From positions 1-39,403 of IMG/VR virus record IMGVR_UViG_3300032234_000919: DNA of 39,403 nt; one strand, 5' to 3'. The notes under the pieces are model-generated. The model did no database searches and was not told the origin of the DNA. It saw only the letters and a list, made by a program, of their open reading frames with translations. This DNA comes from a virus. Its lineage: Duplodnaviria; Caudoviricetes. The first letter of the stretch is position 1; each line of letters opens with the position of its first letter. Below, piece after piece: positions 16,328-39,403 of the stretch. A program made the translations under genes and the position numbers.

Positions 16328-16690
16328 TTAATTAGGAAAGTCTATATTCCCAAACACGTAGTAATCAGAACTAGCATACACAGTGGTTAAACTACCCAAT
16401 ATCTCATACCAAAACATTCCGATATTTAGATTATTTAAACCCGCAATAAGCCCCGTAAATGAATTGTACATATTTCCACTCATAGTCATAAAGGTAGGGT
16501 CGGTTGCTTTCTTTACTTGAATACTAAATGTAGGGTTATTAGAAAAGTTTACCCCACTTGTATCCCAAGTGTAAAGTGTATTAGCATTGGCACTAAATCT
16601 ATTAGGGTCTTGTAAACCACCAAATAAAGAAACATTCAAAAGAAAATTTTGAGTGTTGGTTACATTTATATTTATCAGTTTACGAGCCAT
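16328..16690 (-). CDS. Putative virion protein; N-terminus resembles the first strands of the candidate capsid protein
   Basis: ININVTNT....LNVSLFGG versus IIQISNT....NFDVLGS; beta-rich composition. Confidence 0.5.
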   Translation of the reverse strand: MARKLININVTNTQNFLLNVSLFGGLQDPNRFSANANTLYTWDTSGVNFSNNPTFSIQVKKATDPTFMTMSGNMYNSFTGLIAGLNNLNIGMFWYEILGSLTTVYASSDYYVFGNIDFPN

Positions 16691-19600
16691 TATACAATAT
16701 TAAGCACACCCCCATTTGACCATACCGCACCCGCGGGTAAACCCGCACTTGATGTAGGTACGTTTGCTATAACTAATCGGTTAACGTGCCAAGCACAATC
16801 TAAAGCAGAAGTTATACCACAACCATAAATACCCGCATAATTATTTTGGGCTACGTTGAGGTCACCACCTAAAATAACCGAACCATTCGCTTGAGCCGTA
16901 TTACAAAGACCACTCACTACCGTTGCGTAGTTCGCACACGCGGTATTCGATTGACCTCCCAAAATATTGGTATATAAAGCCGATGCCGTATTTAACTTAC
17001 CTCCGACTACAACGGATAATGAAGTGTTTGCGACGTTGCAACAACCACCCCCGATAAATGTATTGTCGGAAGATGCGATGTTACAAAATCCCGCACCAAC
17101 GAAAGCATTGTTTGATGAAGCCGAATTTCTAAGACCCGCACCAACACCCGAATAAACGCAACTCGCTACGTTTAAGAAACCACCACCAATGAATGAAGGA
17201 TTTCCCGATGCCGTGTTTTGGTCTCCACCCGCAACCGCACTTCTACAAGCCGAAGCGATGTTACCACTACCACCACCTACGAAAGACAAACCCCCACTCG
17301 CGTTATTACCACAACCACCTACTACAATAGCAAATGTTGATGTAGCGCAGTTTTGTTGACCACCCACAACTACGGAATCACTACCCGTAGCAAGGTTGTT
17401 GTTTCCTCCACCAATGAAGGCATCAGTACAAGCACAATTGCTAAACCCACCTACTATGGAAGAAAAGTTTCCAAGTGCACGATTTAATTGACCTCCTAAA
17501 ATTCCCGATGCATTTCCTATCGAACAATTTAAACCACCCGCTCCGACAAAAGATACCTCACCACAAGACCTATTGGCATATCCTCCCGATACCGTACTAC
17601 CAATTCCACTTGCAATACTACATCTTCCTCCTAAAGTGGATGAACATTCACCAATGGCACAACTTCTATTTCCTCCTAAAGATATAGAATATGCGGCAGT
17701 TGCTTTTGCATAAAAACCACTTGCCGTAGAATAGTCACAAGTAGCACAACTTCTAATACCACCTAAAACACTACTATGACCACCCGTTGCTTGATTCTCT
17801 TGACCACCAATTACAGTCGAACAATTTCCGCTTGAAATATTAACAAATCCGCCCGATATAGTTGATTGTAATCCACTCGTTGTATTAGAAACACCTCCAC
17901 CAATAAAGGAATCGAGATTAGTAGTAACATTATTACATCCTCCAACAATTGAAGACCTTCTTGCACCCGCTAAATTGAAAGTACCACCAACAACAACCGA
18001 ACACCATTCACAAGCAATATTACCACTACCTCCACCTATAAATTGATGGTTTGCTGGATTTACAAAACCTATTCTATTATTCTCTCCACCAACTATTGCA
18101 CCAAAAATACTTGTTAAAAAAATACAATTATTTACGCCACCCACTATAGAGGAACCATACCCTAAGGCTTTGTTTCCACATCCTCCAACAACACTACTAA
18201 ATACAGATGTAGCGCAGTTAAAATTACCATTTAAAACTGATGACCAAGAGTTAGTAGCACAATTTCTCAAACCATTACCAACATATGCGTAATCAGCACA
18301 AGCATAATTATAACATCCACTTCCTGTAAAAGCATAAATACCACAAACACGATTATATTCACCATTTACAATTGATGTATAATTACCACAAACTGCACCA
18401 AAAAAACTATTACGACAACCATTTCCAACAAAAGAATTTACACCACTCGCTCTATTTTCAAATCCATTTACTATAACAGAATAAGCACCCGATGCTATGT
18501 TTGAATTCCCTCCACCTACAAATGAATTACTTGAACTAGAAGTGTTGTTTGTACCACCACCTAGAAATGAACACGAAGAACTAGAAGTGTTGTTTGTACC
18601 ACCAACAATAACAGATGCATAAGCCGACCCCGTATTATTTGAACATCCACCACCTATGAATCCACCTCTCGATTGATTTACATTACAAAACCCTCCAACA
18701 ATCGTAGCAAAACAAGCCCTATCATTAGTTTGACAAATTAAATTATTATGACCACCTCCAATAAAAGTGCCACAAAAAATTCCTCCTCCAAAACGATTAA
18801 TGCAATTATTAACACCACCTACAATTACTGATGATTGGCTACATCCTACTATCACGTTATTCACTCCACCACCTACAAAAGAACCATATCCACTAGCAAT
18901 GTTTCCACATCCACCTACAACGCTAGAGAATACGGATATAGCACAATTAGATAAACCACCTACTACTCCACTCCAAGTTCCACTTGCGATGTTACATTGA
19001 CCGCCTATTACCGAAGAACACGCTCCACTAGCATTGTTAGATGCTCCGCCTACAACTACAGATGAAGTACCACTTAATACATTGCTTTTTCCACCACCTA
19101 TAAAAGCGTATCCTGCACTAAGAGTATTATCCCTACCTCCAACTAATACACTACAATTAGCAGTAACAGAATTTGTTAAACCACCTCCAATTACACTTCT
19201 ACCACCTGCATTAGTAACAGAAAAACCTGCCCCGACAAATGATTGTTGATTAGTCGCGCTATTACCCCTACCACCACCTATGAATGAATAATCACCACTA
19301 GCAGTATTCGCACAACCGCCCACAACCGCACTACAATTTCCCGTGGATGAGTTGCCTTGTCCACCCACTACTAAACTACCAATTCCACAAGCAGCATTAT
19401 TAGTACCACCTCCAACAAATGATGCATACCCCGTTGACCTATTTCCACAACCACCAACTATTGATGAGAATATAGATGCCGAGCAATTATTCTGACCACC
19501 TAAAGAATTTGAAAACGCCCCAATAGCACTATTGCCAACTCCACAACGAATTGTAGAATTAGCCCCACTACCTAAAATATAAAGGGATGAAACTCCCGCT

Positions 19601-19728
19601 AATATATCAGTTATACAACCTTGTTTGGTAGTTTGTGCATCGCTATCCCAAATGGGCATAGTAAAGCATCCTTTTATTTGCGCACTCGATAATAAAGGTA
19701 ATGCGCCCGTGGTTTTGTTAGTACTCAT
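16690..19728 (-). CDS. 1012-aa Gly/Cys/Asn-rich repeat fibre (YadA-head-like repeats)
   Basis: Dozens of ~15-aa S.(I/V)xGG..N repeats; C-terminal PTSSAGLPAGAVWSNGGVL. Confidence 0.75.
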   Translation of the reverse strand: MSTNKTTGALPLLSSAQIKGCFTMPIWDSDAQTTKQGCITDILAGVSSLYILGSGANSTIRCGVGNSAIGAFSNSLGGQNNCSASIFSSIVGGCGNRSTGYASFVGGGTNNAACGIGSLVVGGQGNSSTGNCSAVVGGCANTASGDYSFIGGGRGNSATNQQSFVGAGFSVTNAGGRSVIGGGLTNSVTANCSVLVGGRDNTLSAGYAFIGGGKSNVLSGTSSVVVGGASNNASGACSSVIGGQCNIASGTWSGVVGGLSNCAISVFSSVVGGCGNIASGYGSFVGGGVNNVIVGCSQSSVIVGGVNNCINRFGGGIFCGTFIGGGHNNLICQTNDRACFATIVGGFCNVNQSRGGFIGGGCSNNTGSAYASVIVGGTNNTSSSSCSFLGGGTNNTSSSSNSFVGGGNSNIASGAYSVIVNGFENRASGVNSFVGNGCRNSFFGAVCGNYTSIVNGEYNRVCGIYAFTGSGCYNYACADYAYVGNGLRNCATNSWSSVLNGNFNCATSVFSSVVGGCGNKALGYGSSIVGGVNNCIFLTSIFGAIVGGENNRIGFVNPANHQFIGGGSGNIACEWCSVVVGGTFNLAGARRSSIVGGCNNVTTNLDSFIGGGVSNTTSGLQSTISGGFVNISSGNCSTVIGGQENQATGGHSSVLGGIRSCATCDYSTASGFYAKATAAYSISLGGNRSCAIGECSSTLGGRCSIASGIGSTVSGGYANRSCGEVSFVGAGGLNCSIGNASGILGGQLNRALGNFSSIVGGFSNCACTDAFIGGGNNNLATGSDSVVVGGQQNCATSTFAIVVGGCGNNASGGLSFVGGGSGNIASACRSAVAGGDQNTASGNPSFIGGGFLNVASCVYSGVGAGLRNSASSNNAFVGAGFCNIASSDNTFIGGGCCNVANTSLSVVVGGKLNTASALYTNILGGQSNTACANYATVVSGLCNTAQANGSVILGGDLNVAQNNYAGIYGCGITSALDCAWHVNRLVIANVPTSSAGLPAGAVWSNGGVLNIV
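18533..18604. repeat. 27-bp exact repeat at 45-bp spacing within the fibre gene
   Basis: GAACTAGAAGTGTTGTTTGTACCACCA at 18533-18559 and 18578-18604. Confidence 0.85.
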
Positions 19729-19731
19729 AAT

Positions 19732-19884
19732 TTATGGTTCAAATAATAAAATCTTGCCTCCTCCATTGTCGATGAGGAGAATATCGTTTGGGTCTTGCCA
19801 CAATAAAAATGAAAATTCCAAGGGTGAATCCGCATCAACTGCAACCCACCCTATGCAATTTCCCATAGCAATGACTATTGGCAT
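19732..19884 (-). CDS. 50-aa protein (possible fibre adaptor)
   Basis: Hand-translated MPIVIAMGNCIGW...KILLFEP; fills the gap exactly. Confidence 0.65.
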   Translation of the reverse strand: MPIVIAMGNCIGWVAVDADSPLEFSFLLWQDPNDILLIDNGGGKILLFEP

Positions 19885-19885
19885 A

Positions 19886-20152: not shown

Positions 20153-20160
20153 AGTAAGGA

Positions 20161-20507: not shown

Positions 20508-20954
20508 TTAAAAATCACTAATATACTCTTTGAAGAACTCTATGTCATTGATTGTAGTGTTTCCATTAAACATTGATTGAGCCGTTTGTTCTTCGACTTC
20601 AATTCTATAACCCACAGTGGTGTTTGCCTCTATATTCGCGAAAAATGCGTTGTTTGAATCGAACGCATAATCGTAGCCAAACATAGATTGATTTAAACTT
20701 GCTTGGTCTTGATAGGGGTCAACCATCATCTGTAAATTCACTTCGTTTTTATCACCGAATTTGTTGAATTTTCTTAGACGAACGGGTTGTAATAATTGAG
20801 AAATACTAGAAGTAGACTGATAAATGTTGTATAATAAATAATCGTAGTTAAGACCTATTGAAGCGTTTATTTGGTCATAAGAAATACCACTTGCTCCCCT
20901 AACTTCAACTACGGGAGAACTATTTACGCTTATTATGGGTGCAATACTAGGCAT
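20508..20954 (-). CDS. Paralog of the candidate capsid protein (minor capsid?)
   Basis: Shares Y.Q, QS.S..QLL, DPYQ.Q, GY...D and I.A.T.V with 32746-33444. Confidence 0.65.
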   Translation of the reverse strand: MPSIAPIISVNSSPVVEVRGASGISYDQINASIGLNYDYLLYNIYQSTSSISQLLQPVRLRKFNKFGDKNEVNLQMMVDPYQDQASLNQSMFGYDYAFDSNNAFFANIEANTTVGYRIEVEEQTAQSMFNGNTTINDIEFFKEYISDF

Positions 20955-21265
20955 TACTTAACCATCAAAACGTCTTCGCCACTCAAAGTACGAGCAACGA
21001 ATTTTCCGTCCTTTGTACGAACAACTTTCATTTTATATTCTTCAACGAACATTGAATTCAACTTGTCCAAATTGGATGCGCTTTCTTTTGCATCTATAGC
21101 ATCTAAATAAGCATCCAAAATAATACGAGCGTTTTCTTTTTGCTTGACTTTTGAAGATTCGGCTTCTTGTGGAGCGGTAATACCTTTTTTACGAGGCAAT
21201 AAAATTATAACCCCTAAAACAACAATACCGATAATAATTAATCCGTCTTTTAAGTCCTTATTCAT
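20954..21265 (-). CDS. Membrane protein (N-terminal TM)
   Basis: Hydrophobic helix followed by RKK. Confidence 0.75.
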   Translation of the reverse strand: MNKDLKDGLIIIGIVVLGVIILLPRKKGITAPQEAESSKVKQKENARIILDAYLDAIDAKESASNLDKLNSMFVEEYKMKVVRTKDGKFVARTLSGEDVLMVK

Positions 21266-21266
21266 A

Positions 21267-21566
21267 TTATTTTTTTCTCAAAACAAAGAATAATGCAACA
21301 CCTACACCAACTACCAACAAACCTATACCAATATAGATTGGCAAGTTTTCTGAGCGTTGCTTAGATTTTATTGCATTTTCAATCAAAGCCAATTTCGATT
21401 GCTTGTCTTGAGCGGTTAAAAGTTGTTGTTGCAACCTTTTTTGTTCATCCGCGTTCAATAAAGCCAAATCGGCTTGAAGTTTAGTTTGTTGTTTAGCACT
21501 ATATACACCTACCGCGGTGTCTGAAATAGTTTTCGTAAGTGCCGCAAGTGTTACGGGGTCTATCAT
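21267..21566 (-). CDS. Tail-anchored coiled-coil membrane protein
   Basis: Q/L-rich helix, C-terminal TM + RKK. Confidence 0.75.
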   Translation of the reverse strand: MIDPVTLAALTKTISDTAVGVYSAKQQTKLQADLALLNADEQKRLQQQLLTAQDKQSKLALIENAIKSKQRSENLPIYIGIGLLVVGVGVALFFVLRKK

Positions 21567-21808
21567 TTTCGTTCCTCCAATTTTACAAGTCTAGTTTTGG
21601 TTTCTCCACGGAAATCAACGTAATCACCTTTAAGGTATTCGATGTCTTTTTTAGTTTCAGCAACCATAACTTTCAAATCGTTTATATCGCTCATCAAGGA
21701 TTTTATATCTTGATAAAGTGATATAACAAGGAAAGAAACTATCCCCATAATGATTCGTAAAAACCAAGTCCAAAGGGATGTAGTTGTTAAAGCAAGTTCT
21801 TTTTGCAT
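21563..21808 (-). CDS. TM + coiled-coil small protein
   Basis: Follows TAAATTTG 21827-21834. Confidence 0.7.
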   Translation of the reverse strand: MQKELALTTTSLWTWFLRIIMGIVSFLVISLYQDIKSLMSDINDLKVMVAETKKDIEYLKGDYVDFRGETKTRLVKLEERK

Positions 21809-21862: not shown

Positions 21863-22048
21863 CTACTTTATAGGTAATTTAGACCAAATAATTTCGTGTC
21901 CAAAGTATAAAATTGGCTTCCAAAGCAAATCTGTTATGCTCATATAGATACCAACATCAATTCTGTTAGTAGTAATATAAGCAATAAAAAATGTGGAAAG
22001 TGAGCCAACTATTCTATAAGTAATCGTCTTATAAATCGCCCTTTTCAT
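21863..22048 (-). CDS. DUF2061-like small membrane protein
   Basis: KTITYRIVG...K.ILYF.HE..W; start ATG 22048. Confidence 0.75.
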   Translation of the reverse strand: MKRAIYKTITYRIVGSLSTFFIAYITTNRIDVGIYMSITDLLWKPILYFGHEIIWSKLPIK

Positions 22049-22391
22049 TTTTAAGTTGTTCGCGAATTTTAGTCCCACTAATTTCAGCAATTTCCGATGG
22101 TGGAATATGTTCTATTACCTCATATCCTACATCTCGACCATAGTTGAAACTCTCTATATCGGGAATAATAATTACTTTAACCATACCCTCATTAATTAAT
22201 GGATATAGTTGTTTCATAATGTTCAAACGAACTTCTTCCGCACTATAAGGGTTCTTTTCGTCTTTTTCAACATCACGAACCGCAATAAGTACGGGAATAC
22301 CTTGATTTAAATTTTGGTCTATTAGCCAACGATGACCACTATGCCATACTTGCCAACGACCTACATACATTGCATATTTTTTCTTTTCCAT
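22029..22391 (-). CDS. HxGH nucleotidyltransferase (cytidylyltransferase-like)
   Basis: GRWQVWHSGH and ISGTKIR. Confidence 0.8.
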   Translation of the reverse strand: MEKKKYAMYVGRWQVWHSGHRWLIDQNLNQGIPVLIAVRDVEKDEKNPYSAEEVRLNIMKQLYPLINEGMVKVIIIPDIESFNYGRDVGYEVIEHIPPSEIAEISGTKIREQLKNEKGDL

Positions 22392-22411
22392 ATTTTTACA
22401 TTTTACATTTG

Positions 22412-22879
22412 TTACAAATTCAAAAAACTAACAATCTTTCGTAAACATTCCATTTCGGTAAATTCGGAAGTATTTACTGATAAAAGATTTTCTTCGGCTA
22501 TTTCGGTTGGTTCTTCAAAATCAACGCAATGAAAAGCCTCTCTACCCCTCTTTTCTTTTACATCGTAGGTAAGGTAAATCCACTTTACTTGCTTTCCCAA
22601 CGACTCAATATATTGCCTTGCTTCCGCATAAGGAAACACAAAAGAAATTAGGACGTAGCGATTGAGTGAACATTCATAATATGCCATTTCACTAGCACGT
22701 TTAAGGTTTCTCAATCGCCCCTTCCTAGAATAGTCTTGGTCTTTAAACAACAACCGAAATTTATCGTTATCAATAAAATGCGCTGATGGTTTGTTAGCCT
22801 TTGATTTAAGGTGTCCAAATAACAACTTACTCAAAGTTGATTTTCCACTATGGGGTTGTCCAAAGAAAACTATTATCAT
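22412..22879 (-). CDS. cysC: Adenylylsulfate (APS) kinase-like protein
   Basis: GQPHSGKST; D.DKFR; DYSRKGR..N; FEEP. Confidence 0.8.
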   Translation of the reverse strand: MIIVFFGQPHSGKSTLSKLLFGHLKSKANKPSAHFIDNDKFRLLFKDQDYSRKGRLRNLKRASEMAYYECSLNRYVLISFVFPYAEARQYIESLGKQVKWIYLTYDVKEKRGREAFHCVDFEEPTEIAEENLLSVNTSEFTEMECLRKIVSFLNL

Positions 22880-23313
22880 TATTCTTCATCTTTAATTACT
22901 TCCATATCCGCTTGAGGTTCTTCATTACCTACTTCGGTTTCGGGAGTTTCTTCTACTTGGGAAACTTTTTCTGTTTCTTCAGTTTCCTCAGACTTTTCTT
23001 CAACTTCTTGGTTAGAAATAATTCCAACAATTGCATTCTCGTTTTGAACAACATCAAAAGATTTTCCTACAAATAAGAAATGGTGTTTATATAAGCCATT
23101 AGGACTTATACCGCTCCAAGTCAAAACAATAGCACCATCGCTATTAATAGCATCTACTAAAAAAACTTCTGCATTTACAATTGCTTGTAAGTTTTCATCT
23201 TCTTCGACTTCAGCAATTTCACCGATGGTGAAAATATATTTCTTATCGGAGTTTTCGGGATAGTTTTCGTTACTCCTAACTAAAACTACTTTATTATCTT
23301 TTAAGTTTATCAT
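22879..23313 (-). CDS. Acidic hypothetical protein
   Basis: Glu-rich tail; in operon. Confidence 0.7.
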   Translation of the reverse strand: MINLKDNKVVLVRSNENYPENSDKKYIFTIGEIAEVEEDENLQAIVNAEVFLVDAINSDGAIVLTWSGISPNGLYKHHFLFVGKSFDVVQNENAIVGIISNQEVEEKSEETEETEKVSQVEETPETEVGNEEPQADMEVIKDEE

Positions 23314-24131
23314 TTTGTGTATCTAAAATAGTCAAAAAACCATTTGTAAGTATTCCAAATCCAATCAGTAACATCTCGACCTAAAACTTGTTTAGCAGTG
23401 CTAGGAACGACTTCTAACTTAGTGCGAATAGTATGGTCTCCAAAGATTCCATAAACTTCGTCTGATTCTTGAGTAATTTGCTCAATATTATCCCAATCGT
23501 GTTGGAAGTAAGGCAACCCTAAATACTCATAAATACGATGCATTTCAGTATCGGGGTTTATGCACAAGTCTTCAAACTTTACAAAAAGTATTTTTGAATC
23601 GTAGCCTTGTCGCATAATTTCTGAAAGCCTTTCAATAGCCATACCAACGGGTTGTCCGTTTGCCCAAACATCAATTCGTTTTGGGGTACTAGTACCAATG
23701 AGTTGAGCGTGGTCTACCATATTGTTTCCCAAATGCTGATTTTTACGGAAATTCTTTTCCATAGAGCAATAAACATCTCTCAAATCGCGAACCATACAAA
23801 TAATCTTAGGTTCGGGATAAAAGAAATTTAAAAAGTCTCTATGTATTCCGTAAGCACGGCTTTTTTCCATTACAAACTTTTTGTCCGTAATGGCATTGAA
23901 AAAGCCAAACATACCATTGTGGCAAAAAGCCTTCCACCCCTTTTCCATAGTTTCTGTATCTTGGGCTTTAAATTCGGGGCTATTTCTATAATTGGCTTGG
24001 GCAGCATACAACAACTCAAAAACTCCACTAGTAGGAGTAACGTAAAAGTCGGGATTTTGAGCCATAATGTTTTGCAACAACGTGCTACCACTACGAGGCA
24101 AACTCGAATTGAAAAATATTTTATCTACCAT
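23310..24131 (-). CDS. PAPS-dependent sulfotransferase
   Basis: 5'-PSB SLPRSGSTLL; 3'-PB VRDLRDVYCS; KFEDL..NP. Confidence 0.9.
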   Translation of the reverse strand: MVDKIFFNSSLPRSGSTLLQNIMAQNPDFYVTPTSGVFELLYAAQANYRNSPEFKAQDTETMEKGWKAFCHNGMFGFFNAITDKKFVMEKSRAYGIHRDFLNFFYPEPKIICMVRDLRDVYCSMEKNFRKNQHLGNNMVDHAQLIGTSTPKRIDVWANGQPVGMAIERLSEIMRQGYDSKILFVKFEDLCINPDTEMHRIYEYLGLPYFQHDWDNIEQITQESDEVYGIFGDHTIRTKLEVVPSTAKQVLGRDVTDWIWNTYKWFFDYFRYTK

Positions 24132-24136
24132 ACATT

Positions 24137-25012
24137 TTAAATTTTTTCTAAAGCCTCAATAATAGTTTCCGCATCGAATATTTCGTTGGAACTATTGTAG
24201 GGCATTTCTAATGGGTCTCCCGTAATGTTAAACATACCCAAATAAGCATTACGCAATTCGGGCTTTTTAGTCCAATCTTTCGCTTGAATATTGATATGTG
24301 TGTCGTATCCAAATACACCCTCGGCATTGGCAATCCAACAAACCACGGAGGGAAGTTGTAAAGCAGCGCAAACGTGGTTAGCAAATGAATCAATCAAAAG
24401 GCGTTTTTGTGCCATCATTAAAAGAACACACATAGCACGGAAATTATCGGAAACCATCACCGTGTTATTCAAAGCGGGTTGGTCTTCTCTACGAATATGA
24501 CATACTAAATATTTTTCGGCATAATGGTCTACTACCTTCTGAGCCGTTTGTTGTGGAATATCTCTAGCCCAAGAATATTTGTTTTCTTGATTTGGTGCAC
24601 CCCCGTTTGTCTGAATAACCATCAACGGCTTATCCGAGACGAACTTTTGAGAATATAATTCCATTTCCCTTTGTGTGAGGTAAATTTGGGGATATTCTCC
24701 GTTGTATTGATACCCATTAAGTTTTGCCCACGTTTTAAGGATATGTTCGGTTTTTTGAATATGGGCAATCTCAAAATAGGGATTGTGAGCGTGTACTTTG
24801 CAAGGCTTATTGTGAATATATTCCTCATAAAAATATTGAATGTTTCCGAATCCGAATGACCTATCAACGTAAGGATTGTTTAAAAAAACTTCGGGGTATC
24901 CACTAACAACGATAAGTTTTGCTTCGGGATGTTGAACCTTGATAGTTTGGCAAATTGCGGTGGCAATAATACACTTACCTAAACCACCATCTATTTGAAA
25001 AATTATATTCAT
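24137..25012 (-). CDS. Glycosyltransferase, GT-B fold (GT9-like)
   Basis: GGLGKCI; IDSFANH.CAAL..PSVV.W. Confidence 0.75.
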   Translation of the reverse strand: MNIIFQIDGGLGKCIIATAICQTIKVQHPEAKLIVVSGYPEVFLNNPYVDRSFGFGNIQYFYEEYIHNKPCKVHAHNPYFEIAHIQKTEHILKTWAKLNGYQYNGEYPQIYLTQREMELYSQKFVSDKPLMVIQTNGGAPNQENKYSWARDIPQQTAQKVVDHYAEKYLVCHIRREDQPALNNTVMVSDNFRAMCVLLMMAQKRLLIDSFANHVCAALQLPSVVCWIANAEGVFGYDTHINIQAKDWTKKPELRNAYLGMFNITGDPLEMPYNSSNEIFDAETIIEALEKI

Positions 25013-26270: not shown

Positions 26271-26271
26271 A

Positions 26272-27560: not shown

Positions 27561-27561
27561 T

Positions 27562-27981: not shown

Positions 27982-27983
27982 TT

Positions 27984-29121: not shown

Positions 29122-29122
29122 A

Positions 29123-30379: not shown

Positions 30380-30380
30380 A

Positions 30381-30890
30381 TTAATTTTTGCGAATATCGC
30401 TCAAAAATAATTCTTTTCCGTAACCCGAAAATTTCAAAATCACTTTATCCCCCAAACCGCTTGTAGCAGATGATGGTAAAGTCATTGTTCCCATACCCGT
30501 ATCTGTAGCACCACTTGGTATTACAACACTACCCGAAGTTGGAGTTGGTACATAAACACCACCCGTTGAAGTTGGAGTTGGAGGTGGCAATAAAATACCA
30601 CTATCCTTCAAAATCTTGTCAGCCGTTGCAGTACTACCCGCTGAAATAGGTGAAGATGCTCCTTCTTTTGCAGCAGTTGCTCCACTAGGAGGAGTAACGG
30701 GCATTGAAGAAATAGTTACACTTACGGGAGTTGATGGAGTAACGGGGCTAGGAGGCAAAATTATTGTTCCTCCGCCTCCACCGCCTCCACCACCTTGAGT
30801 AGTGCTTTCGGGTTTTTTCTTATATCTATTGTAAAGAAGTATTGCCGCAACGGCAACACCTCCATACAATAACAAATTGTTATTTGCCAT
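30381..30890 (-). CDS. Membrane protein with a poly-Gly, Pro/Ser/Thr-rich (mucin-like) ectodomain
   Basis: N-terminal TM, G9 run, P/S/T tracts; TATCTTTG at 30895-30902. Confidence 0.75.
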   Translation of the reverse strand: MANNNLLLYGGVAVAAILLYNRYKKKPESTTQGGGGGGGGGTIILPPSPVTPSTPVSVTISSMPVTPPSGATAAKEGASSPISAGSTATADKILKDSGILLPPPTPTSTGGVYVPTPTSGSVVIPSGATDTGMGTMTLPSSATSGLGDKVILKFSGYGKELFLSDIRKN

Positions 30891-30907
30891 ACTTCAAAGA
30901 TAAATAA

Positions 30908-31024
30908 TTATTTATTACCCTCTGTAGTCGTAGTGGTAGCCGTTGGTTTTGGCTTCTTGAAAACGAAATACAAAACACCCGCCACAACGGCAAGAGTTAA
31001 GATAGTTTTTGTTGTTTTGTTCAT
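30908..31024 (-). CDS. 38-aa membrane peptide
   Basis: Hand-translated MNKTTKTILTLAVVAGVLYFVFKKPKPTATTTTTEGNK. Confidence 0.7.
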   Translation of the reverse strand: MNKTTKTILTLAVVAGVLYFVFKKPKPTATTTTTEGNK

Positions 31025-31035
31025 AATTTTATAAA

Positions 31036-31221
31036 TTAAAATGGTTGTTTTTTGTAAAGTTGGTCATCGAAAGTAATTTCATCTTGTGTGAAATTAGCAA
31101 ATCCATCGGGCTGAGGATTTCCATTAGTAGCGGAATCCAAAACATCGTCTTTTTTTAAAGACTTAATTATTAGCACCGCTGCCAATATCCCTAGTCCGTA
31201 GTATATGTATTCTTTTTTCAT
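31036..31221 (-). CDS. Small membrane protein
   Basis: N-terminal TM. Confidence 0.7.
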   Translation of the reverse strand: MKKEYIYYGLGILAAVLIIKSLKKDDVLDSATNGNPQPDGFANFTQDEITFDDQLYKKQPF

Positions 31222-31436
31222 TTTTTAAATAAATTATAGATTATGTATGCACCTAGAGCAACACCTAAAAACATCAATATTCCACCCATATTTTCTTCTT
31301 GTGTTGTATTTAATTTTTCATCTTCTGAATTATCACCATCAGCACTTAAAGTCAAGTTTTTAACTCGACTTATTTGTGGATTGAAAAATTGTTTGTTTAC
31401 TATGTTTGAATCAAGTGTCATATTAATCTCTTTCAA
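31218..31436 (-). CDS. Tail-anchored protein with ADG motif
   Basis: LSADG; C-terminal TM + KK. Confidence 0.7.
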   Translation of the reverse strand: MKEINMTLDSNIVNKQFFNPQISRVKNLTLSADGDNSEDEKLNTTQEENMGGILMFLGVALGAYIIYNLFKK

Positions 31437-31647
31437 ATAAAAAGTAATTTATTGCACCTCCACCAATTGCTCCTAAAACGGCAAAAACGTAAAGGTTCTT
31501 TTTAGAGTACCAAGCATACATTAGACCCGCAACTACACCAACTGCACCACCTTTAATTACTTTCTTAGATTTATCTACGAAAGAATCGTGAGCATCTTGG
31601 CTCTTTATTTTTTTTACGTTATCTAATGCATCCTCAAATTGTTCCAT
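31423..31647 (-). CDS. Two-TM Gly-rich membrane protein
   Basis: GGAVGVVAG and LGAIGGG helices. Confidence 0.7.
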   Translation of the reverse strand: MEQFEDALDNVKKIKSQDAHDSFVDKSKKVIKGGAVGVVAGLMYAWYSKKNLYVFAVLGAIGGGAINYFLFERD

Positions 31648-31650
31648 ATT

Positions 31651-32283
31651 TTACTTCTTTTTATAAAAGTAAACTGCAACACCTATCAATGCTATCGCTC
31701 CAACAACTAATAAAACAGTGGTAGTAGTTGAAATACCTCTACCGCTTCCGATTGAAGATAGTTCATCTCTACCCGAATTCAAGTCAGTTGAAACAACATT
31801 TGCAGGTTGTCCCGTTTGTTTAATTGACCAAATATTTAAACCCGTATTGATTGCACTTGTAGCATTTTCGGGAGTAAATAGACCACTTAAAAAAGAGCCT
31901 ACTGCCGTATCTGAAAAACTTTTCTTTGGTCTTGTAGTTAGACCCGTAGGTGGCTCTATTGGGGGAGTACCACCTAAAGTCATAAATACTTTTGACGAAG
32001 ATGATGGGTCTGAAGTAGAAAGCCCTTTACCACTAGGTAAATCAGTTGCAGCAAAACCGCTATAATCCTCTTGAGCCGTTCTTAAAATTAACTTAGAAAA
32101 ATCATTCCTAAATTTTTCGCTTTTTGGCAATAATGCAGCAAAGGCTTTTTCAATTTGTGTTGAAGAAGCATTGTCCGCTATCATTACACCATTCTTACGA
32201 ATTAAAGCAATGGTTTCTTTTGGATTGTTATCAATCGTATAAGCCGTAAGGGCGTAGATTTTATTTGGTTCTAGTGATTTCAT
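31651..32283 (-). CDS. Tail-anchored membrane protein
   Basis: S/T/G-rich linker; C-terminal TM + KKK. Confidence 0.75.
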   Translation of the reverse strand: MKSLEPNKIYALTAYTIDNNPKETIALIRKNGVMIADNASSTQIEKAFAALLPKSEKFRNDFSKLILRTAQEDYSGFAATDLPSGKGLSTSDPSSSSKVFMTLGGTPPIEPPTGLTTRPKKSFSDTAVGSFLSGLFTPENATSAINTGLNIWSIKQTGQPANVVSTDLNSGRDELSSIGSGRGISTTTTVLLVVGAIALIGVAVYFYKKK

Positions 32284-32666
32284 TTTTTTGATACAATAAT
32301 TGCTGCGGCTATAATGATTGTTGCCGCTATCAACATAGCATTAGTTTGTAATGCCAATTTTGTCGAATCATTTTGTTGTTGGTTGTTATTTAAAACTGCC
32401 CCCGTAAGGATTCCGTCCGCTCCCAAAAAACTTTCATTTTTCTTGCATCCACAATTGCCATTTGCGTTTGAGTACAACTCAACAAATAAATCTTTGTCGG
32501 GATGTATTTCGGCTATTGCTTTTAATGCGGGTTCGCCTTCTTGGGCTACCAACATACGAAGATTATCGCCCATTCTACGAGGGTCAACTACTTGATAACC
32601 GAATTGATTAATTACGGCTTTTGCCCCGTATGGATTTGATTTAGCGATGTATTCGTAAAAGTTCAT
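32280..32666 (-). CDS. Tail-anchored protein with two ADG-like motifs
   Basis: YSNANG, FLGADG; C-terminal TM + KK. Confidence 0.75.
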   Translation of the reverse strand: MNFYEYIAKSNPYGAKAVINQFGYQVVDPRRMGDNLRMLVAQEGEPALKAIAEIHPDKDLFVELYSNANGNCGCKKNESFLGADGILTGAVLNNNQQQNDSTKLALQTNAMLIAATIIIAAAIIVSKK

Positions 32667-33732: not shown

Positions 33733-33739
33733 CATTGTT

Positions 33740-34552
33740 TTACTTTAAGTACATTTTTTTTAGTCGTTGGAGTTCCGATTTCATCGCACTATCGTGGGTA
33801 TATTTCGGTTTGTTAGTAGAAGTCCTAACTTGGAGCATTGGAGTAATTACCCTTCGATAATTTTCTTCTAAATATTGAGTACAAGCAACCTCAAACTTTT
33901 TCTCGTCAATCTTTCCTATTAAACACATATTTTCTACGTCCACATACTGATAAAATCTAATATTATCGGCAAAGTATTCGTTGTTTACCATAAACTCGGT
34001 TATGCGCAACAATTCATATTTATCTTCAAACTTCTTTTCGTGTCTTTTTGTGCTTTCCGTAATTTTATGAAACCGAAGCCAATTCATATTTTGCCAAACC
34101 TTCGGGGAAACCCTCCCTATACCTTGGTAGTGTAAAATAATATCTAAGTCCCTATGTCGGTTCGTTGCAATAGCCCCCATTAAGTCCATAGGCATACTAT
34201 CGCTGATGTAGCGGTTAATATCTTCAATCAATAGTAAACCTCCGCTATAGTTGTCTAAAATCACTCCTAAAGTATGTCCTAGTTCGTCTAGGGTCATTTT
34301 TTTACCATTCGGATGAAAAGGTCTAACTCTTCTTGCTTCAACAACGGGATGTAAACTAAACTTGATTAAATCTTTCAGTGCAATTGCCTTAATATGGGTA
34401 AACTCATCATTCACATCAAGTATTAGTGCTTTCCTTGGAAGTATCCCACTAGCGGGGTTTCCCATCACATAATCTTGCACTAACTTATTGGTAGTAAATG
34501 ATTTGCCACACCCTTTTTTGCCCACCGCAACACCTAATTTTGGCTCTCTCAT
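33740..34552 (-). CDS. FtsK/HerA-superfamily (A32/P9-like) genome packaging ATPase
   Basis: Walker A GKKGCGKS; ILDVNDEF; Walker B LLLIED; RH...IILHYQ arginine-finger/sensor; ATGA-coupled start at 34552. Confidence 0.75.
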   Translation of the reverse strand: MREPKLGVAVGKKGCGKSFTTNKLVQDYVMGNPASGILPRKALILDVNDEFTHIKAIALKDLIKFSLHPVVEARRVRPFHPNGKKMTLDELGHTLGVILDNYSGGLLLIEDINRYISDSMPMDLMGAIATNRHRDLDIILHYQGIGRVSPKVWQNMNWLRFHKITESTKRHEKKFEDKYELLRITEFMVNNEYFADNIRFYQYVDVENMCLIGKIDEKKFEVACTQYLEENYRRVITPMLQVRTSTNKPKYTHDSAMKSELQRLKKMYLK

Positions 34553-35304
34553 AGATTTTGCCCTTCTAAATATTTTTTCTTCCAAACATATAACATACTC
34601 TTATCTACATTGAATTTTTCTTTTACTTGAGTTAAAGTTGCTTTATCTTCAATCCAATATTTAAGTGCTTGTTTCTTATGTTCTTGCCATTGTTCTAAAG
34701 TCATACCTTTTTTTTGAGCAATAGAAGATTCTGTACCATTGGACATTCGACTTTTAGTTTCATCACTTCTTTTGTAAGAAGCGGCTTCTCCCATCATTTT
34801 ACGTTGTTCGTAAGTCCATCCACCACTTTTCTCATACCATTCTCTTATTTTCTGCTTGGACTCTTCGGTGTGTTTTTTACCTTTATTCACTTCGCTTAAT
34901 TTTTGTTTGTGTTCAATAGTCTTTTTTCTACCTTTTGCTTTTTCACTTATTTTTCTTTTTTGTTCTTCAGTTAATTTATACTGAATAGAACCATTTGAAA
35001 TATCTAAAATATTGTAAAGGATTATTTTATTTAACTCCCTCTCTTGTTGACGAAAATACTTTATCCAAAATACTTCTCTTTCTGATGCATTGTCAAATGA
35101 ACAAATCTCCAATGGCTCAATAAATAAATTATCTTGCCCATACTTCTTGTAAGCAGATACAAAATATTTATTTGTATGTAAATCTCTTTTCAAGTTTTGA
35201 ATATGAGTGTTCATTCTTTGCTCTAACCTTAATGATGTTTTGCCAACGTATATTCTTTCATCGCCTTTGAAGAAAAGTTTGTAGATAGTGTATTTGTCTT
35301 TCAT
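34549..35304 (-). mobile_element. Free-standing GIY-YIG homing endonuclease with NUMOD3 repeats
   Basis: IYKL...IYVGKT...R...H; E..WI; YN; KGKKHTEESKQKI. Own TATATTTG at 35309-35316. Confidence 0.85.
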
Positions 35305-35339
35305 AAAACAAATATACTACTTTTCTTCCAAAAGGTATA

Positions 35340-36320
35340 TTACGCTTTCTTTCTTCTAGTCCTTCTAGGTTTGTCATTTGCAATATCTTCCATCTGTTGC
35401 AAAATACTTGCATCCCCGAATTGTGGCATAGAAGTTTTTGTTCTTGACTTACGTAATGGCTCATCAACTACAATAGCCTCTTGTACGGGTTCAAAGTTAC
35501 TAACCTCTTCGGGCTCTACATATTGTCTAGTAGGTTCGCTTTTAGGTTCTTCGTATCTAGGGCTTTCTACGGGTTCTTCCCTCTTAGCCTCTTGTCTAGG
35601 TTGTGCACTTGGAGGTGGGGTAGAAACTCTTTGTGAGGTCATTTCTTTTAAAGAATCTAACAACTCCGAATTTTGTTTGCGTAGTGCAAAAACTGTTGCC
35701 CCTTTTGAAATAATATCTACACCAAAATAATAAGCCAATAATTGCTCATCGGTCATACCAATATTACGCTTCATAAACACACGAAGCATAACGGGTCTTA
35801 CCTTATCCTTGAATTCATCACTTACAGATATTACACCATCTGTTTGTGCATTGTATTCTTGAATGTAGTCAAGTATTGATACATTTGTTCCACCAACGGG
35901 TAAACTTATATTGGGGTCGATTTCCCCACTTTGCATTAAATTTTCAACTTTCTTAGGATTGAATTGAACTAACTTATTAGCAAATCCATTCAATTGAGTA
36001 TAACCATCTAACACTGCCTCAACCAATGCAGCGGAAGCCGCTTTTTGGTCTTTTTTGTCTAGTGTTTCAGTATATGGGTTTGCTGAAGAAGAATCGCCAT
36101 TTTGACCCCAAACAGTCCTACCATCTCCTTGTGATGGTTGTTCGGGATTAATATTGCTTTCTAAACCGCTTTGCAATTCTTCAAAACTTGGAGAAATAAA
36201 AACGGGTTCTTCAATAGGACTTGTATCTACTACTTGTACGTTTGGTTTAGTGTATTCTCTCTGAATAACATTTTCTTGTAGTGGATTAAAATCTATTTCA
36301 AAATTGTTCTCTGTGCTCAT
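35340..36320 (-). CDS. Acidic hypothetical protein (possible packaging or scaffold accessory)
   Basis: 326-aa ORF upstream of the ATPase; basic C-terminal tail. Confidence 0.7.
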   Translation of the reverse strand: MSTENNFEIDFNPLQENVIQREYTKPNVQVVDTSPIEEPVFISPSFEELQSGLESNINPEQPSQGDGRTVWGQNGDSSSANPYTETLDKKDQKAASAALVEAVLDGYTQLNGFANKLVQFNPKKVENLMQSGEIDPNISLPVGGTNVSILDYIQEYNAQTDGVISVSDEFKDKVRPVMLRVFMKRNIGMTDEQLLAYYFGVDIISKGATVFALRKQNSELLDSLKEMTSQRVSTPPPSAQPRQEAKREEPVESPRYEEPKSEPTRQYVEPEEVSNFEPVQEAIVVDEPLRKSRTKTSMPQFGDASILQQMEDIANDKPRRTRRKKA

Positions 36321-36323
36321 ATA

Positions 36324-36761
36324 TTATCTATTAAGGAGTTCTTTAAGTTTGATTTTCGATTGTTCTAATTTTTGGTGTATTTTCTTTTCAAATGCCGTAT
36401 CATTAGGAAAATTGTCGATGAATTGTTTTGCTTTTGAAATTGTGGAAACACTTGTTTTCGCATAGCCTTGCAAATCTATAACGGAATAGTTTCTATCGTA
36501 ATAGCACAACCATACCCAACAAGCAAATGCGTATTTCCTTGGATACTTTCTACTATTACCAAACAAAATCACGGTTGAAATATCAAATACTTCACAAACA
36601 CTTTGAGCCGCTAAAGACAAATCACTTTTCCATACGTTGTGACTTTGACCCTTTTCTAGTAAATGAATAGTATTTTGAATACCTATCTCTCGGATAGAGG
36701 AACTGATTGCTCCAAATAGATTCTCAATGCTCCTAAGTGAGTTCTTCGGTGTTGTTGTCAT
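36324..36761 (-). CDS. HTH protein resembling DnaA domain IV
   Basis: VCEVFDIS...LFGNSR...YL/WL...S...STIS pattern. Confidence 0.5.
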   Translation of the reverse strand: MTTTPKNSLRSIENLFGAISSSIREIGIQNTIHLLEKGQSHNVWKSDLSLAAQSVCEVFDISTVILFGNSRKYPRKYAFACWVWLCYYDRNYSVIDLQGYAKTSVSTISKAKQFIDNFPNDTAFEKKIHQKLEQSKIKLKELLNR

Positions 36762-37131
36762 TTTCAATAAAAATTATCTTGCCCTCTTCACCCCATATTT
36801 TTTTTGCCACAATGGAATGAATAGTTTGGTCGCCTTCGGGTTTCAACGCATCAAATACAAACTTGATAATATTATCTAAGTCGGGTTTTGATTGATGTTT
36901 AGTACCACACATTCTTTGTCGTTTTTTATTCGACCAAGAACTCGGCATTGGCAATACAAATATAATATTTGCTTCGTCTTTTAAAAGAAAATTTTGCGAT
37001 GCTGCAAAAAATTGAATTGCTTGACAACTCAATCTATACCTCAGCACTTCGGGTCGGGGAGGTTTGAGCCACTTATCCCTTTGTGTCATTCGTGGCTTAC
37101 CTATTGGATTTAATAGAAATTCATATTCCAT
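36733..37131 (-). CDS. rusA: RusA-family Holliday junction resolvase
   Basis: KPDLDNIIKFVFDAL...D..I. Confidence 0.85.
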   Translation of the reverse strand: MEYEFLLNPIGKPRMTQRDKWLKPPRPEVLRYRLSCQAIQFFAASQNFLLKDEANIIFVLPMPSSWSNKKRQRMCGTKHQSKPDLDNIIKFVFDALKPEGDQTIHSIVAKKIWGEEGKIIFIENDNNTEELT

Positions 37132-37768
37132 ACTTACTTGTGAATTCTTTCGATTGTACTAGTCTCTTAGCGCAAATGTGCGCGAAGTCATTATCAGTTG
37201 GATAATGAAGTCCTAAAAACAATCTACTTGTGGCTACATCGTGTGTTAAATTAGAAAGTGTTTCGTAATGTTCGGGATATTTATTCCCTATAAATTCAGT
37301 TAATACCCTTGCTTGAAAAGTATGCCCACTTGGATAAGAGGGATTAACTGCTGCCAATGATTTAAACGGAAACAATTTTGCCTTGTATTGCCCCGCTAAT
37401 TGATATGGTCTTATTCTCTGATAGTGAAATTTTAATTTGACTACCAAAAATTTGGTATCTTCTATAATTTCATCAATTTGAGAATCTAAATTTTGTCCTA
37501 CTTTGTTTTTGCAGTAGTTCTTAAAAATTTCAATTAAGTTTTTATCGTATTCAATATATCTACCAACTAATTCTTCATTTTGTTGTTCGGGTAAATTTTG
37601 ATATTGAATCAAAACTCTAATCTCATCCTTTGCTGCTTCACTTGAGTTTGTTGGATAAGGATATTCTTTTAAATCATCAAAAATATAATCAGACCCACCT
37701 TTACGTAGATAAGGTAGGAAGTCATCAGTAGGATTGCCGTAAATTATTTCATCAAGGTAGTTCTTCAT
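37121..37768 (-). CDS. PAP2-superfamily phosphatase/haloperoxidase-like protein
   Basis: K.....RP; YPSGH; SR...GLHYPTD. Confidence 0.85.
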   Translation of the reverse strand: MKNYLDEIIYGNPTDDFLPYLRKGGSDYIFDDLKEYPYPTNSSEAAKDEIRVLIQYQNLPEQQNEELVGRYIEYDKNLIEIFKNYCKNKVGQNLDSQIDEIIEDTKFLVVKLKFHYQRIRPYQLAGQYKAKLFPFKSLAAVNPSYPSGHTFQARVLTEFIGNKYPEHYETLSNLTHDVATSRLFLGLHYPTDNDFAHICAKRLVQSKEFTSKYGI

Positions 37769-38105
37769 ACTTACTACCCATATTTTTCTTCAAGTTGAAT
37801 TTTAACTCATTAATATCTTTTTTCATTGATTCATCATCTTTGTCCAATTTCATCATACTTTTTCTTTGAACATAGATTTGCATAACCAATGAAACAATGG
37901 TTAAAGAAATAATTCCTATCGCAATCCATTGACCCCAATCTCTACTTCCATCAGAATCACCTTCGGGGGCATCTCCACCTTGTTCTAAGTTCATTCCTTG
38001 AGCCGCCATAGTTGCGGGAGTAGGAGGGATAGGATTAGTTGCCATTGATGCGGCATTTGTTGCTTCTTGTGCTACTTGTTGTGTTGCTATTTGGGTTGCT
38101 TCCAT
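37752..38105 (-). CDS. Membrane protein
   Basis: Low-complexity N-terminus, central TM, coiled coil. Confidence 0.7.
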   Translation of the reverse strand: MEATQIATQQVAQEATNAASMATNPIPPTPATMAAQGMNLEQGGDAPEGDSDGSRDWGQWIAIGIISLTIVSLVMQIYVQRKSMMKLDKDDESMKKDINELKFNLKKNMGSKYEELP

Positions 38106-38603
38106 TTATGCTATAAATTTTATGTAATTACCTTGCCTCATAACGGCACGATATTTACCGACTTGTGCTTTGGGTCTTTCAGTACCCGTAAATTCCACTT
38201 TGGGTTCTATCTCATCCATTACCTCTTTTTTCGCTTCTTGTATATCTTTAGTATAGTTTCTGTATATAATACCAATAACTGCACCAACACCTACAACTGC
38301 TAAACCTATCTTGGCTTTCTGTTTAACATCACCTTTAACATAATAAAGAGTTGCTAGAACACCCGTCCACCAAATAGGATTCAAAAGATAATAAGCCGAT
38401 ACTGATTTGCGCCAATATTTCTGAGGGGTAATCGTACCCGCCTTCCATTGGTTGCGCAATTTTCTTTCATAATAAAAGTAAAGGGCATCAGCGGGGGTAG
38501 GGATAATATCAGATAATATTAATCCAACCGCCCCCGCATAGAGAACTCCTTGCCCGTACTTTCCGTCCGTTGCTTTCGATATTTCCGAAAAAACTTCTTT
38601 CAT
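38106..38603 (-). CDS. Multi-pass membrane protein
   Basis: Two to three hydrophobic segments. Confidence 0.7.
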   Translation of the reverse strand: MKEVFSEISKATDGKYGQGVLYAGAVGLILSDIIPTPADALYFYYERKLRNQWKAGTITPQKYWRKSVSAYYLLNPIWWTGVLATLYYVKGDVKQKAKIGLAVVGVGAVIGIIYRNYTKDIQEAKKEVMDEIEPKVEFTGTERPKAQVGKYRAVMRQGNYIKFIA

Positions 38604-38713
38604 TACTTAGAAGCCTTTGAGAAACCTTTTCCTGCAACGTAGGCTACAACGTAGATAGCACCTAAAGAGATTGCTAAACCTAGAAGAGCCGTGCCTAAAT
38701 TAGTGTTTTTCAT
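38603..38713 (-). CDS. 36-aa membrane peptide
   Basis: Hand-translated MKNTNLGTALLGLAISLGAIYVVAYVAGKGFSKASK. Confidence 0.7.
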   Translation of the reverse strand: MKNTNLGTALLGLAISLGAIYVVAYVAGKGFSKASK

Positions 38714-38721
38714 ATATTTTG

Positions 38722-38940
38722 TTAATTAGGTTCTTTTTCATTTTTACTTGCACCAAAGTAATAACTTATTATCATTGTTATAATTGACAATACGCCACCG
38801 CTAATGGTAAAATAAATATCTTTTTGTTCGCTTGGGAAGTCATAGAATACTATGCTTATCAAAACGAAGAAGCACAAAGTTATCACAATAAATGCGATAA
38901 TTGATGTTGCGTGTTTAGTGAGTAATTCTAAAAATTTCAT
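38722..38940 (-). CDS. Two-TM holin-like protein
   Basis: Two TM helices, IISYYFGAS, charged tail. Confidence 0.55.
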   Translation of the reverse strand: MKFLELLTKHATSIIAFIVITLCFFVLISIVFYDFPSEQKDIYFTISGGVLSIITMIISYYFGASKNEKEPN

Positions 38941-39263
38941 TTTTGTACAATTATTGTGTCGTGAATTACAATGGTATCTATTCCAACAACTTGAGATAAT
39001 ACCATCGCTAATTTACTGCGTTTTTTTTCTTTCACTAGGGTAGTTGACATTACTTTTATGTTAGATTCGATTGCGGCTACTTGAGCGTTTTTAATGCTAT
39101 CAGCAACTAATGAAATAGAATCGTGTTTGTACATTGTTTTGTGGCTTTCAAAATATATTGAATCGGCTTCACGAATAATCGAATCCAACTCAGCATCTTT
39201 TTCTTGCTCAACATTTGAACAACTAGTTATAAATAATGGCAATATCAATAGTAGCCTAATCAT
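38937..39263 (-). CDS. Lipoprotein (spanin-like?)
   Basis: Signal peptide with lipobox ITSC; coiled coil. Confidence 0.6.
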   Translation of the reverse strand: MIRLLLILPLFITSCSNVEQEKDAELDSIIREADSIYFESHKTMYKHDSISLVADSIKNAQVAAIESNIKVMSTTLVKEKKRSKLAMVLSQVVGIDTIVIHDTIIVQK

Positions 39264-39403
39264 TTTCTTGGGATTTTACCTAACTGAGTATAAATCTCAA
39301 TTTTTGTGGTTGCCGCTGCAAGTGCACTATCGCTTTTCTTTAATTGCTTAGAATGCAACAAAACGATAGCCTTGAGTTCTGCTATTTCTTTTTTGTACTC
39401 TTC
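39260..39403 (-). CDS. Partial coiled-coil protein (5' end outside the window)
   Basis: Open frame EEYKKEIAELK...GKIPRK*; ATGA overlap with the next gene. Confidence 0.6.
   Translation of the reverse strand, partial: EEYKKEIAELKAIVLLHSKQLKKSDSALAAATTKIEIYTQLGKIPRK

What the first reader, a model, noticed from the sequence alone, without database searches (positions are those of the whole stretch)
16328..39403. Morphogenesis module of a large tailless, probably membrane-containing Bacteroidota virus
Seen: an A32/P9-type packaging ATPase, a beta-rich capsid candidate, a spike base plus fibre, and more than 20 small single-TM proteins. No terminase, portal, HK97 capsid or tail genes were recognised in 23 kb of structural genes. 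Known: this ATPase class packages genomes in PRD1/PM2/sphaerolipovirus-like viruses with internal membranes, and characterised bacterial members are mostly 10-30 kb or smaller. Inference: a >39-kb lineage that combines tailless morphogenesis with tailed-phage-like accessory genes (RecT, RusA, HNH).
Basis: partly seen in the sequence, partly recalled or inferred. Interest (0 to 1): 0.85.

Follow-up and report, generated by a model that had tools for sequence, protein, structure and literature searches.

The report
Large tailless lake phage assembly module
This stretch is the likely particle-building gene block of an uncultured lake virus, probably of Bacteroidota bacteria: it has a packaging motor of the tailless-virus type, a predicted single jelly-roll coat protein and about 20 small membrane proteins, and its relatives reach 68-132 kb with no detectable tailed-phage head genes, larger than the tailless bacterial viruses I could compare.

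The parts
33740..34552 (-). A32/P9/B204-type (FtsK-HerA superfamily) genome-packaging ATPase, 270 aa
32746..33444 (-). Major capsid protein candidate: N-terminal helix, disordered leader (17-41) with two F-x-[NS]-A-[DN]-G motifs, single jelly-roll-like barrel (50-202), C-terminal arm
20508..20954 (-). Capsid paralogue lacking the first barrel strands; likely vertex (penton-like) half
   Evidence: HHalign 99.1%, E 4.9e-19 to capsid residues 93-201; found in 12 of 14 relatives; predicted complex with 16328-16690
16328..16690 (-). Spike-base/adaptor; predicted to donate the missing strands to 20508-20954; N-terminal domain of 223-1241-aa proteins in relatives
   Evidence: Complex score 0.87, best control 0.00; fused to beta-propeller or DUF285 repeats in relatives; gene within 460 bp downstream of the paralogue in 10 of 11 relatives that hold both
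16690..19728 (-). 1012-aa repeat fibre, variable between relatives
   Evidence: Sequence; similar long proteins in 7 of 12 relatives; no family hit
29123..29905 (-). Conserved HExxH zinc-protease candidate (H187, E188, H191, E201/E203)
   Evidence: Residues invariant in 32 of 32; in 43 of 49 loci and 14 of 14 whole records; no Pfam, PHROG or PDB hit
25504..32666 (-). Block of small membrane proteins around the protease; five carry the shared motif (26007, 26272, 27024, 30104, 32280); 25504 is LEA_2-like
   Evidence: Hydropathy and motif scan; Pfam LEA_2 E 1.7e-7; 32280, 30104, 25504 in 12 of 12 relatives
35340..36320 (-). Core protein of unknown function just upstream of the ATPase (packaging/assembly factor candidate)
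   Evidence: 46 of 49 loci, 12 of 12 whole records; no family hit
37121..37768 (-). PAP2-superfamily phosphatase/haloperoxidase-like enzyme, core gene
   Evidence: PF01569 E 7.3e-8; 44 of 49 loci
37752..39263 (-). Further membrane proteins, a two-helix holin-like ORF (38722) and a lipoprotein-like ORF (38937)
   Evidence: Hydropathy; roles inferred from sequence only
20954..21808 (-). Three small membrane proteins next to the capsid paralogue
   Evidence: 20954 in 10 of 12 relatives
22029..25012 (-). Accessory sulfation/glycan block: nucleotidyltransferase-like, APS kinase, sulfotransferase, 291-aa unknown
   Evidence: PF01467 (under cut-off), PF01583, PF13469; in 7-9 of 12 relatives
34549..35304 (-). 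GIY-YIG/NUMOD3 homing endonuclease, a recent insertion
   Evidence: PF01541; absent at this place in the 90%-identical relative G005
36733..37131 (-). RusA-like resolvase, accessory
   Evidence: PF05866 E 1.5e-12; BLAST hits in 3 of 12 relatives
11594..12334 (+). Outside the finding: 246-aa conserved protein with PolB-like motif spacing (D116, K145, T214-D215); polymerase reading unconfirmed
   Evidence: Atlas lead DNA_pol_B_2 0.86; no HMM or HHalign support
10194..11216 (+). Outside the finding: conserved basic protein ending in K-F-x-x-G-G-x-V; terminal-protein or core-protein candidate
   Evidence: gene beside the PolB-like gene in the 9 relatives listed; no similarity to PRD1 P8

Best explanation
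The region is the likely morphogenesis operon of a large, likely linear double-stranded DNA virus of probably Bacteroidota hosts, which would build a tailless particle from one predicted single jelly-roll coat protein laid on a likely internal membrane and fill it with an A32/B204-type ATPase. Steps: (1) shown: the ATPase, coat candidate, protease, PAP2 enzyme and several small membrane proteins travel together in all whole records read; (2) inferred: the membrane proteins recruit host lipid, and the coat protein, made in the largest amount, assembles on that vesicle as a vertical single-barrel lattice; (3) predicted: 20508-20954 and 16328-16690 interlock into one barrel at the vertices, the second half carrying or anchoring variable receptor-binding domains and fibres; (4) inferred: the ATPase pumps the 70-130-kb genome, which in relatives ends in inverted repeats, into the procapsid; (5) inferred, weaker (about even odds): the HExxH protease cuts at the shared F-x-N-A-D-G-type peptide in the coat leader and membrane proteins to mature the particle; otherwise the peptide is an uncut docking signal.
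Confidence: 0.78

Rival explanations
1. A tailless virus, but with a pleomorphic or externally enveloped particle: the many membrane proteins form the shell and the jelly-roll protein is a matrix or surface layer, not an icosahedral lattice over an inner membrane.
For: Very high share of membrane proteins; no capsid family match; a PAP2 enzyme and glycosyltransferases are core genes.
Against: The jelly-roll protein is soluble, most conserved and most codon-optimised; a dedicated B204-like ATPase and a vertex-like paralogue fit a preformed procapsid, as in HCIV-1/HHIV-2 (PMC6414509, passages).
Confidence: 0.1
2. A true member of the two-coat-protein vertical single-barrel group (Halopanivirales-like): the split 20508+16328 pair is the second, towered coat protein rather than a vertex protein.
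For: The closest ATPase by profile is P23-77's (89.9%); a one-piece 320-aa form with an insert between the first and later strands exists in G051; those viruses use a plain and a towered coat protein and have ~30-kb linear genomes with inverted repeats (PMC5332951, passages).
Against: The pair lies 12-16 kb from the coat gene, has weaker codon bias (ranks 6 and 32 of 48) and is fused to bulky propellers or 700-1200-aa domains in relatives; no profile match to VP4/VP7/VP16/VP17.
Confidence: 0.07
3. A tailed phage with unrecognisably divergent head genes, or with head genes in the part not held; the ATPase and jelly-roll protein would then have other jobs (segregation, decoration).
Against: End-to-end records with inverted repeats lack terminase, portal and HK97 hits; the one strong terminase hit covers an intein in a MoxR-type AAA protein; no direct terminal repeats in 49 records.
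Confidence: 0.03
4. A non-viral linear plasmid or conjugative element whose ATPase is a VirB4/TraD relative and whose jelly-roll protein is a pilus or surface subunit.
Confidence: 0.02

Closest known systems
Thermus phage P23-77 and haloarchaeal SH1/HHIV-2/HCIV-1 (Halopanivirales; vertical single-barrel viruses, realm Singelaviria per 10.1101/2025.02.15.638363, passages)
   Same: FtsK-HerA packaging ATPase (best profile match P23-77), single jelly-roll coat, many membrane proteins; SH1 group has linear genomes with inverted repeats.
   Different: One coat gene, not an adjacent small/large pair; no profile similarity of coat proteins; genomes 68-132 kb against 17,036 bp and 30,578 bp; conserved HExxH protease and shared motif; split paralogue.
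Salisaeta icosahedral phage 1 (SSIP-1)
   Same: Membrane-containing, listed among vertical single-barrel viruses (PMC4958249, passages); largest tailless phage genome I compared, 43,788 bp. That its host is Bacteroidota-related and its lattice T=49 is recalled; the primary paper was not held.
   Different: Circular record; no HMM match of ATPase, coat, protease, paralogue or adaptor to 33 of its 57 ORFs (best E 0.28); its Walker-A protein aligns only over the P-loop.
STIV2 B204 / PM2 P9 / PRD1 P9 / A32 ATPases (double jelly-roll viruses, Varidnaviria)
   Same: ATPase fold and motifs; RH arginine finger and strand-end Q read as the A32-type signature (signature recalled).
   Different: Coat is one barrel of about 150 residues, not two; prokaryotic double-jelly-roll genomes are about 7-18 kb (PMC5894146, passages).
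Flavobacterium phages FLiP and phiCjT23
   Different: FLiP-group viruses are ssDNA, up to 17 kb, without a packaging ATPase.

Membership tests
Caudoviricetes (tailed phages) | Terminase large subunit | tested here: not met
   0 of 49 records PF03237, 0 of 5 PF03354; PHROG/Pfam scans of window and 14 relatives; sole hit is an intein. The rest of this genome is not held.
Caudoviricetes (tailed phages) | Portal and HK97 capsid protein | tested here: not met
   PF04860 0 of 4 inverted-repeat records; the G050 match is on another contig of that bin; no major-head or portal hit
Conjugative VirB4/TraD ATPases | Closest structural kin among coupling/VirB4 proteins, large multi-domain or membrane-anchored | tested here: not met
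Varidnaviria (double jelly-roll viruses) | A32/P9-type packaging ATPase | tested here: met
Varidnaviria (double jelly-roll viruses) | [quoted passage not shown] | tested here: not met
   One barrel, residues 50-202; tandem two-barrel copies exist only as extra genes (G001 397 aa, P0126, P0159)
Varidnaviria (double jelly-roll viruses) | Single jelly-roll penton | tested here: inconclusive
   A split paralogue is predicted; vertex position not shown; no match to PRD1 P31 or PM2 P1
Singelaviria / Halopanivirales | FtsK-HerA packaging ATPase | tested here: met
   P23-77 ATPase 89.9%, E 1.7e-6, 150 columns; PH1 ATPase
Singelaviria / Halopanivirales | Two paralogous single jelly-roll coat proteins (plain and towered) from adjacent genes | tested here: not met
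   One coat gene; next gene is a membrane protein; the only paralogue is truncated and 12 kb away. It could still act as a second coat protein (rival 2).
Singelaviria / Halopanivirales | Coat homologous to VP16/VP17 or VP4/VP7 | tested here: inconclusive
   No profile-to-single-sequence match; fold searches gave only generic jelly-roll scores
Singelaviria / Halopanivirales | Vertical barrels in an icosahedral lattice over an internal membrane | not testable with these tools
   Needs particles; membrane-protein load is indirect
SSIP-1-like viruses | Shared structural proteins with SSIP-1 | tested here: inconclusive
   No hit in 33 of 57 ORFs; single sequences limit sensitivity
Protein-primed family B polymerases | Profile match with exonuclease, palm and TPR domains | tested here: inconclusive
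   Motif spacing by eye and Atlas lead 0.86 with 138 of 256 features; HHalign 0.1% to 7 pPolBs, aligning motif C only; too short for an exonuclease domain

The most novel reading that the evidence does not exclude
An undescribed high-rank lineage of giant tailless Bacteroidota phages, common in lakes, that package up to 132 kb into a membrane-lined shell built from a single small jelly-roll protein, plug interchangeable spikes into a vertex barrel completed by strand donation, mature by zinc-protease cleavage at a shared peptide, and copy linear genomes with a stripped-down family B polymerase.
Probability: 0.3. Interest if true: 0.92.

Novelty: new variant of a known kind. Interest (0 to 1): 0.78.

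Why it matters
Large bacterial virus genomes are assumed to belong to tailed phages; tailless bacterial viruses that I could compare span 10-44 kb. A family of over a thousand clusters with genomes of 68-132 kb, invisible to Pfam, PHROG and GenBank searches, would move that limit about threefold, add an unrecognised predator of freshwater Bacteroidota, and give a non-halophilic, non-thermophilic model for single jelly-roll capsids, the proposed forerunners of double jelly-roll shells. The coat, ATPase and protease profiles now make the group findable, and the split vertex pair and protease motif are direct bench tests.

Tried and rejected
No tblastn match of ATPase or coat among 50,697 GenBank phages. 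Profile searches of PDB sequences for coat, ATPase, protease and PolB-like protein gave nothing significant. Foldseek on the coat model: no PDB match at E 0.001, viral-model hits are C1q/fibre-type with TM under 0.3; Halopanivirales coat proteins are not among the listed VIA rows, which does not exclude them. Atlas look-alikes for the coat scored 0.80 or less. 'Terminase large subunit' on L061:6615-9116 (E 1e-41) rejected: the matched residues 162-533 are a LAGLIDADG intein inside an AAA_5 protein whose intein-free form is in G014. Other head/tail labels rejected as repeat or domain matches without further test: collagen fibres, an M23 domain hitting a tape-measure family, phrog_5939, phrog_977, phrog_16619. 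Provirus idea rejected: G050:C9 and G051:C1 show flat GC and virus-like small ORFs to both ends. PolB reading not confirmed. Search for longer fused coat forms found one 512-aa protein (weak evidence). No RNA holder listed. No ATPase tree was built: at 10-18% identity I relied on fold and profile ranks. The single complex job went to the split pair, so coat oligomers and protease-motif binding were not modelled. One 4,026-aa collagen protein was left out; 19 of G004's 100 ORFs (short ones) were left out, and G004-only clusters were scanned against Pfam alone. Paper searches (one search was on promoters) listed no description of this lineage; most subscription journals are not searched and no supplements were read.
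Full report
Observation. The window is a single 39,403-bp virus record. From 16328 to the right end all called genes lie on the minus strand. The ATPase, the beta-rich 232-aa protein, the 120-aa and 1012-aa genes and about 20 small membrane proteins are there as described. Pfam and PHROG name none of these structural candidates and find no terminase large subunit, portal or major head protein among 69 window proteins. The block also holds a sulfation cassette, a GIY-YIG endonuclease, RusA and a PAP2 enzyme; RecT and HNH lie left of the finding.

The family. The 232-aa protein has 1,354 clusters at 90% identity and 1,084 representatives at 50% identity, and no match among 50,697 GenBank phages. 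Forty-nine IMG/VR loci were fetched; within 10 kb the ATPase is present in 47, 35340 in 46, PAP2 in 44 and the HExxH protein in 43. Fourteen records were read whole: twelve IMG/VR contigs of 41.7-102.2 kb and two contigs of 101.8 and 132.5 kb from bacterial bins that are virus-like end to end. Thirteen gene clusters occur in 12 of 12, among them coat, ATPase, protease, PAP2, five small proteins, a glycosyltransferase and a MoxR-type AAA protein with its neighbour. The 90%-identical relative G005 runs 17.5 kb past the window's right end; by collinearity with G014 I infer about 75 kb for this genome. Twenty runs from 13 studies hold the stretch; the labelled ones are freshwater, lake or plankton.

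No tailed-phage head. Terminase_6N matched 0 of 49 records, 0 of 13 rated at least 90% complete, while ringing in 5 of 14 control genomes. All 119 ORFs of 60 aa or more in the inverted-repeat record G014 were scanned against PHROG, 81 of 100 G004 ORFs against Pfam, and 181 of 182 representatives of the remaining proteins of 240 aa or more against PHROG. One strong terminase hit appeared, in the closest relative; it covers an intein within the core AAA protein. Collagen and repeat fibres draw 'tail' labels. Four of 49 records have inverted end repeats and none direct repeats; lengths are 653, 133, 123 and 123 bp, the short ones possibly assembler overlaps, two of them holding an inward-facing TATATTTG. 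G050:C9 ends in inverted arrays of an 11-mer.

Split vertex protein. 20508-20954 is a coat paralogue covering residues 93-201 only (99.1%). The start of 16328-16690 faintly resembles the missing residues 53-77 (6%). The two genes lie within 460 bp in 10 of 11 relatives holding both and about 4 kb apart here and in G007; the second is often the N-terminus of a propeller or repeat protein; G051 has instead one 320-aa protein with both parts around an insert. The predicted complex scored 0.87 against a best control of 0.00 (mark reached by 116 of 157 solved and 2 of 215 mismatched pairs; runs agree in at least 93% of contacts; partner pLDDT at least 88), pairing the donor's first strand with the paralogue's last. 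Halves of a split gene tend to pass such tests, and the model does not show binding or vertex position. Spike strands locking into pentons are known from HCIV-1/HHIV-2 (PMC6414509, passages).

Protease and motif. 29123-29905 keeps H187, E188, H191, E201 and E203 in 32 of 32 sequences. An aromatic-x-[NGSY]-A-[DNE]-G-type peptide occurs 9 times in 6 window proteins, the coat leader and five membrane proteins (shuffle mean 0.4, maximum 2 of 30; pattern drawn from this window), in 80 of 82 close and 47 of 133 diverse coat sequences. Cleavage is not shown.

Host. TAnnTTTG lies upstream of 9 of 32 operon-head genes (shuffle mean 1.4, maximum 5; reverse strand 3), exceeds the shuffle maximum in 11 of 12 relatives, Shine-Dalgarno-like words are rare (8 of 72; background 6.4%) and A stands at -3 in 62%; these are Bacteroidetes traits (PMC6847099, passages). 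Bins disagree: the two long contigs are in Bacteroidota bins, the nine short ones mostly in unrelated taxa.

Replication. 11594-12334 keeps aspartates and a lysine at PolB-like spacing and sits beside a conserved basic protein, as terminal protein and polymerase genes do in PRD1. Only an Atlas lead supports this; profile tests failed. I give it about even odds.

Comparison and verdict. It works like the vertical single-barrel, internal-membrane viruses but fails their two-adjacent-coat-gene test and shows no coat homology; it fails the double jelly-roll test and the tailed-phage tests. Prokaryotic double-jelly-roll genomes are 7-18 kb (PMC5894146, passages), the SH1 group about 30 kb (PMC5332951, passages), SSIP-1 43.8 kb. 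Also seen: 10.1101/2025.02.15.638363 and PMC13552765 (passages); other papers as search listings only. Nine lineage-directed searches listed no description of this group. Earlier notes of this scan report the same lineage, motif and split paralogue on other genomes; they are not independent evidence. Verdict: new variant of a known kind, interest 0.78.

Noticed in passing
window 10194-12334 (+): Conserved gene pair: basic protein plus 246-aa protein with PolB-like motif spacing and no exonuclease part; 518 clusters, no Pfam or PDB match. Possible minimal polymerase with terminal protein.
   Followed up: partly
window 10194-11216 C-terminus; relatives' large proteins: Second motif [FYM]-x-x-G-G-x-[VILT]: 7-38 hits in 2-8 mostly soluble proteins per relative, shuffle means 1.4 or less; possible packaging or cleavage signal for injected proteins.
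   Followed up: partly
L116:1-90 and L122:18280-18486 (G050:C9): 132,486-bp record with inverted arrays of an 11-mer at both ends; G/T-rich short repeats also at one end of G002, G003 and G051. Telomere- or origin-like.
   Followed up: partly
L055:17225-18418, 6650-7174, 14648-15112 (G001); P0126, P0159: Extra coat-like genes, including tandem two-barrel copies, among accessory genes: a natural single-to-double jelly-roll fusion, or a defence against related viruses.
   Followed up: no
L123:4889-5572 (G051): Second, degenerate copy of the packaging ATPase near the contig end.
   Followed up: no
window 22029-25012: APS kinase, sulfotransferase and nucleotidyltransferase-like genes between structural genes; many glycosyl- and methyltransferases in relatives: possible sulfated glycan coat on the particle or host surface.
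   Followed up: no
L061:6615-9116; L088:186-2786; L072:13986-16457: Inteins in the core MoxR-type AAA protein and the core glycosyltransferase; they cause false terminase hits in PHROG.
   Followed up: yes
L051:9038-10153; L088:3280-5640; L092:2161-4926: Large polyvalent-type proteins with RelA/SpoT, ADP-ribosyltransferase and ArdA domains upstream of the module.
   Followed up: no
window 8506-9261: GH19 lysin with a C-terminal membrane anchor, like the structural membrane proteins; may be a virion entry enzyme.
   Followed up: no
L117:17825-18304; L060:2728-3207: LRAT/NlpC-like enzyme with a C-terminal membrane segment inserted between the split vertex genes in two relatives.
   Followed up: no
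L053:3-11339 (G004): Collagen-repeat fibre of at least 3,778 aa ending in a Peptidase_S74 chaperone domain.
   Followed up: no
window 2248-2505 and 14487-14723: Two paralogous ~80-aa genes (40% identity) on opposite strands; the sequence just past window base 150 also recurs in G014's end repeat.
   Followed up: no
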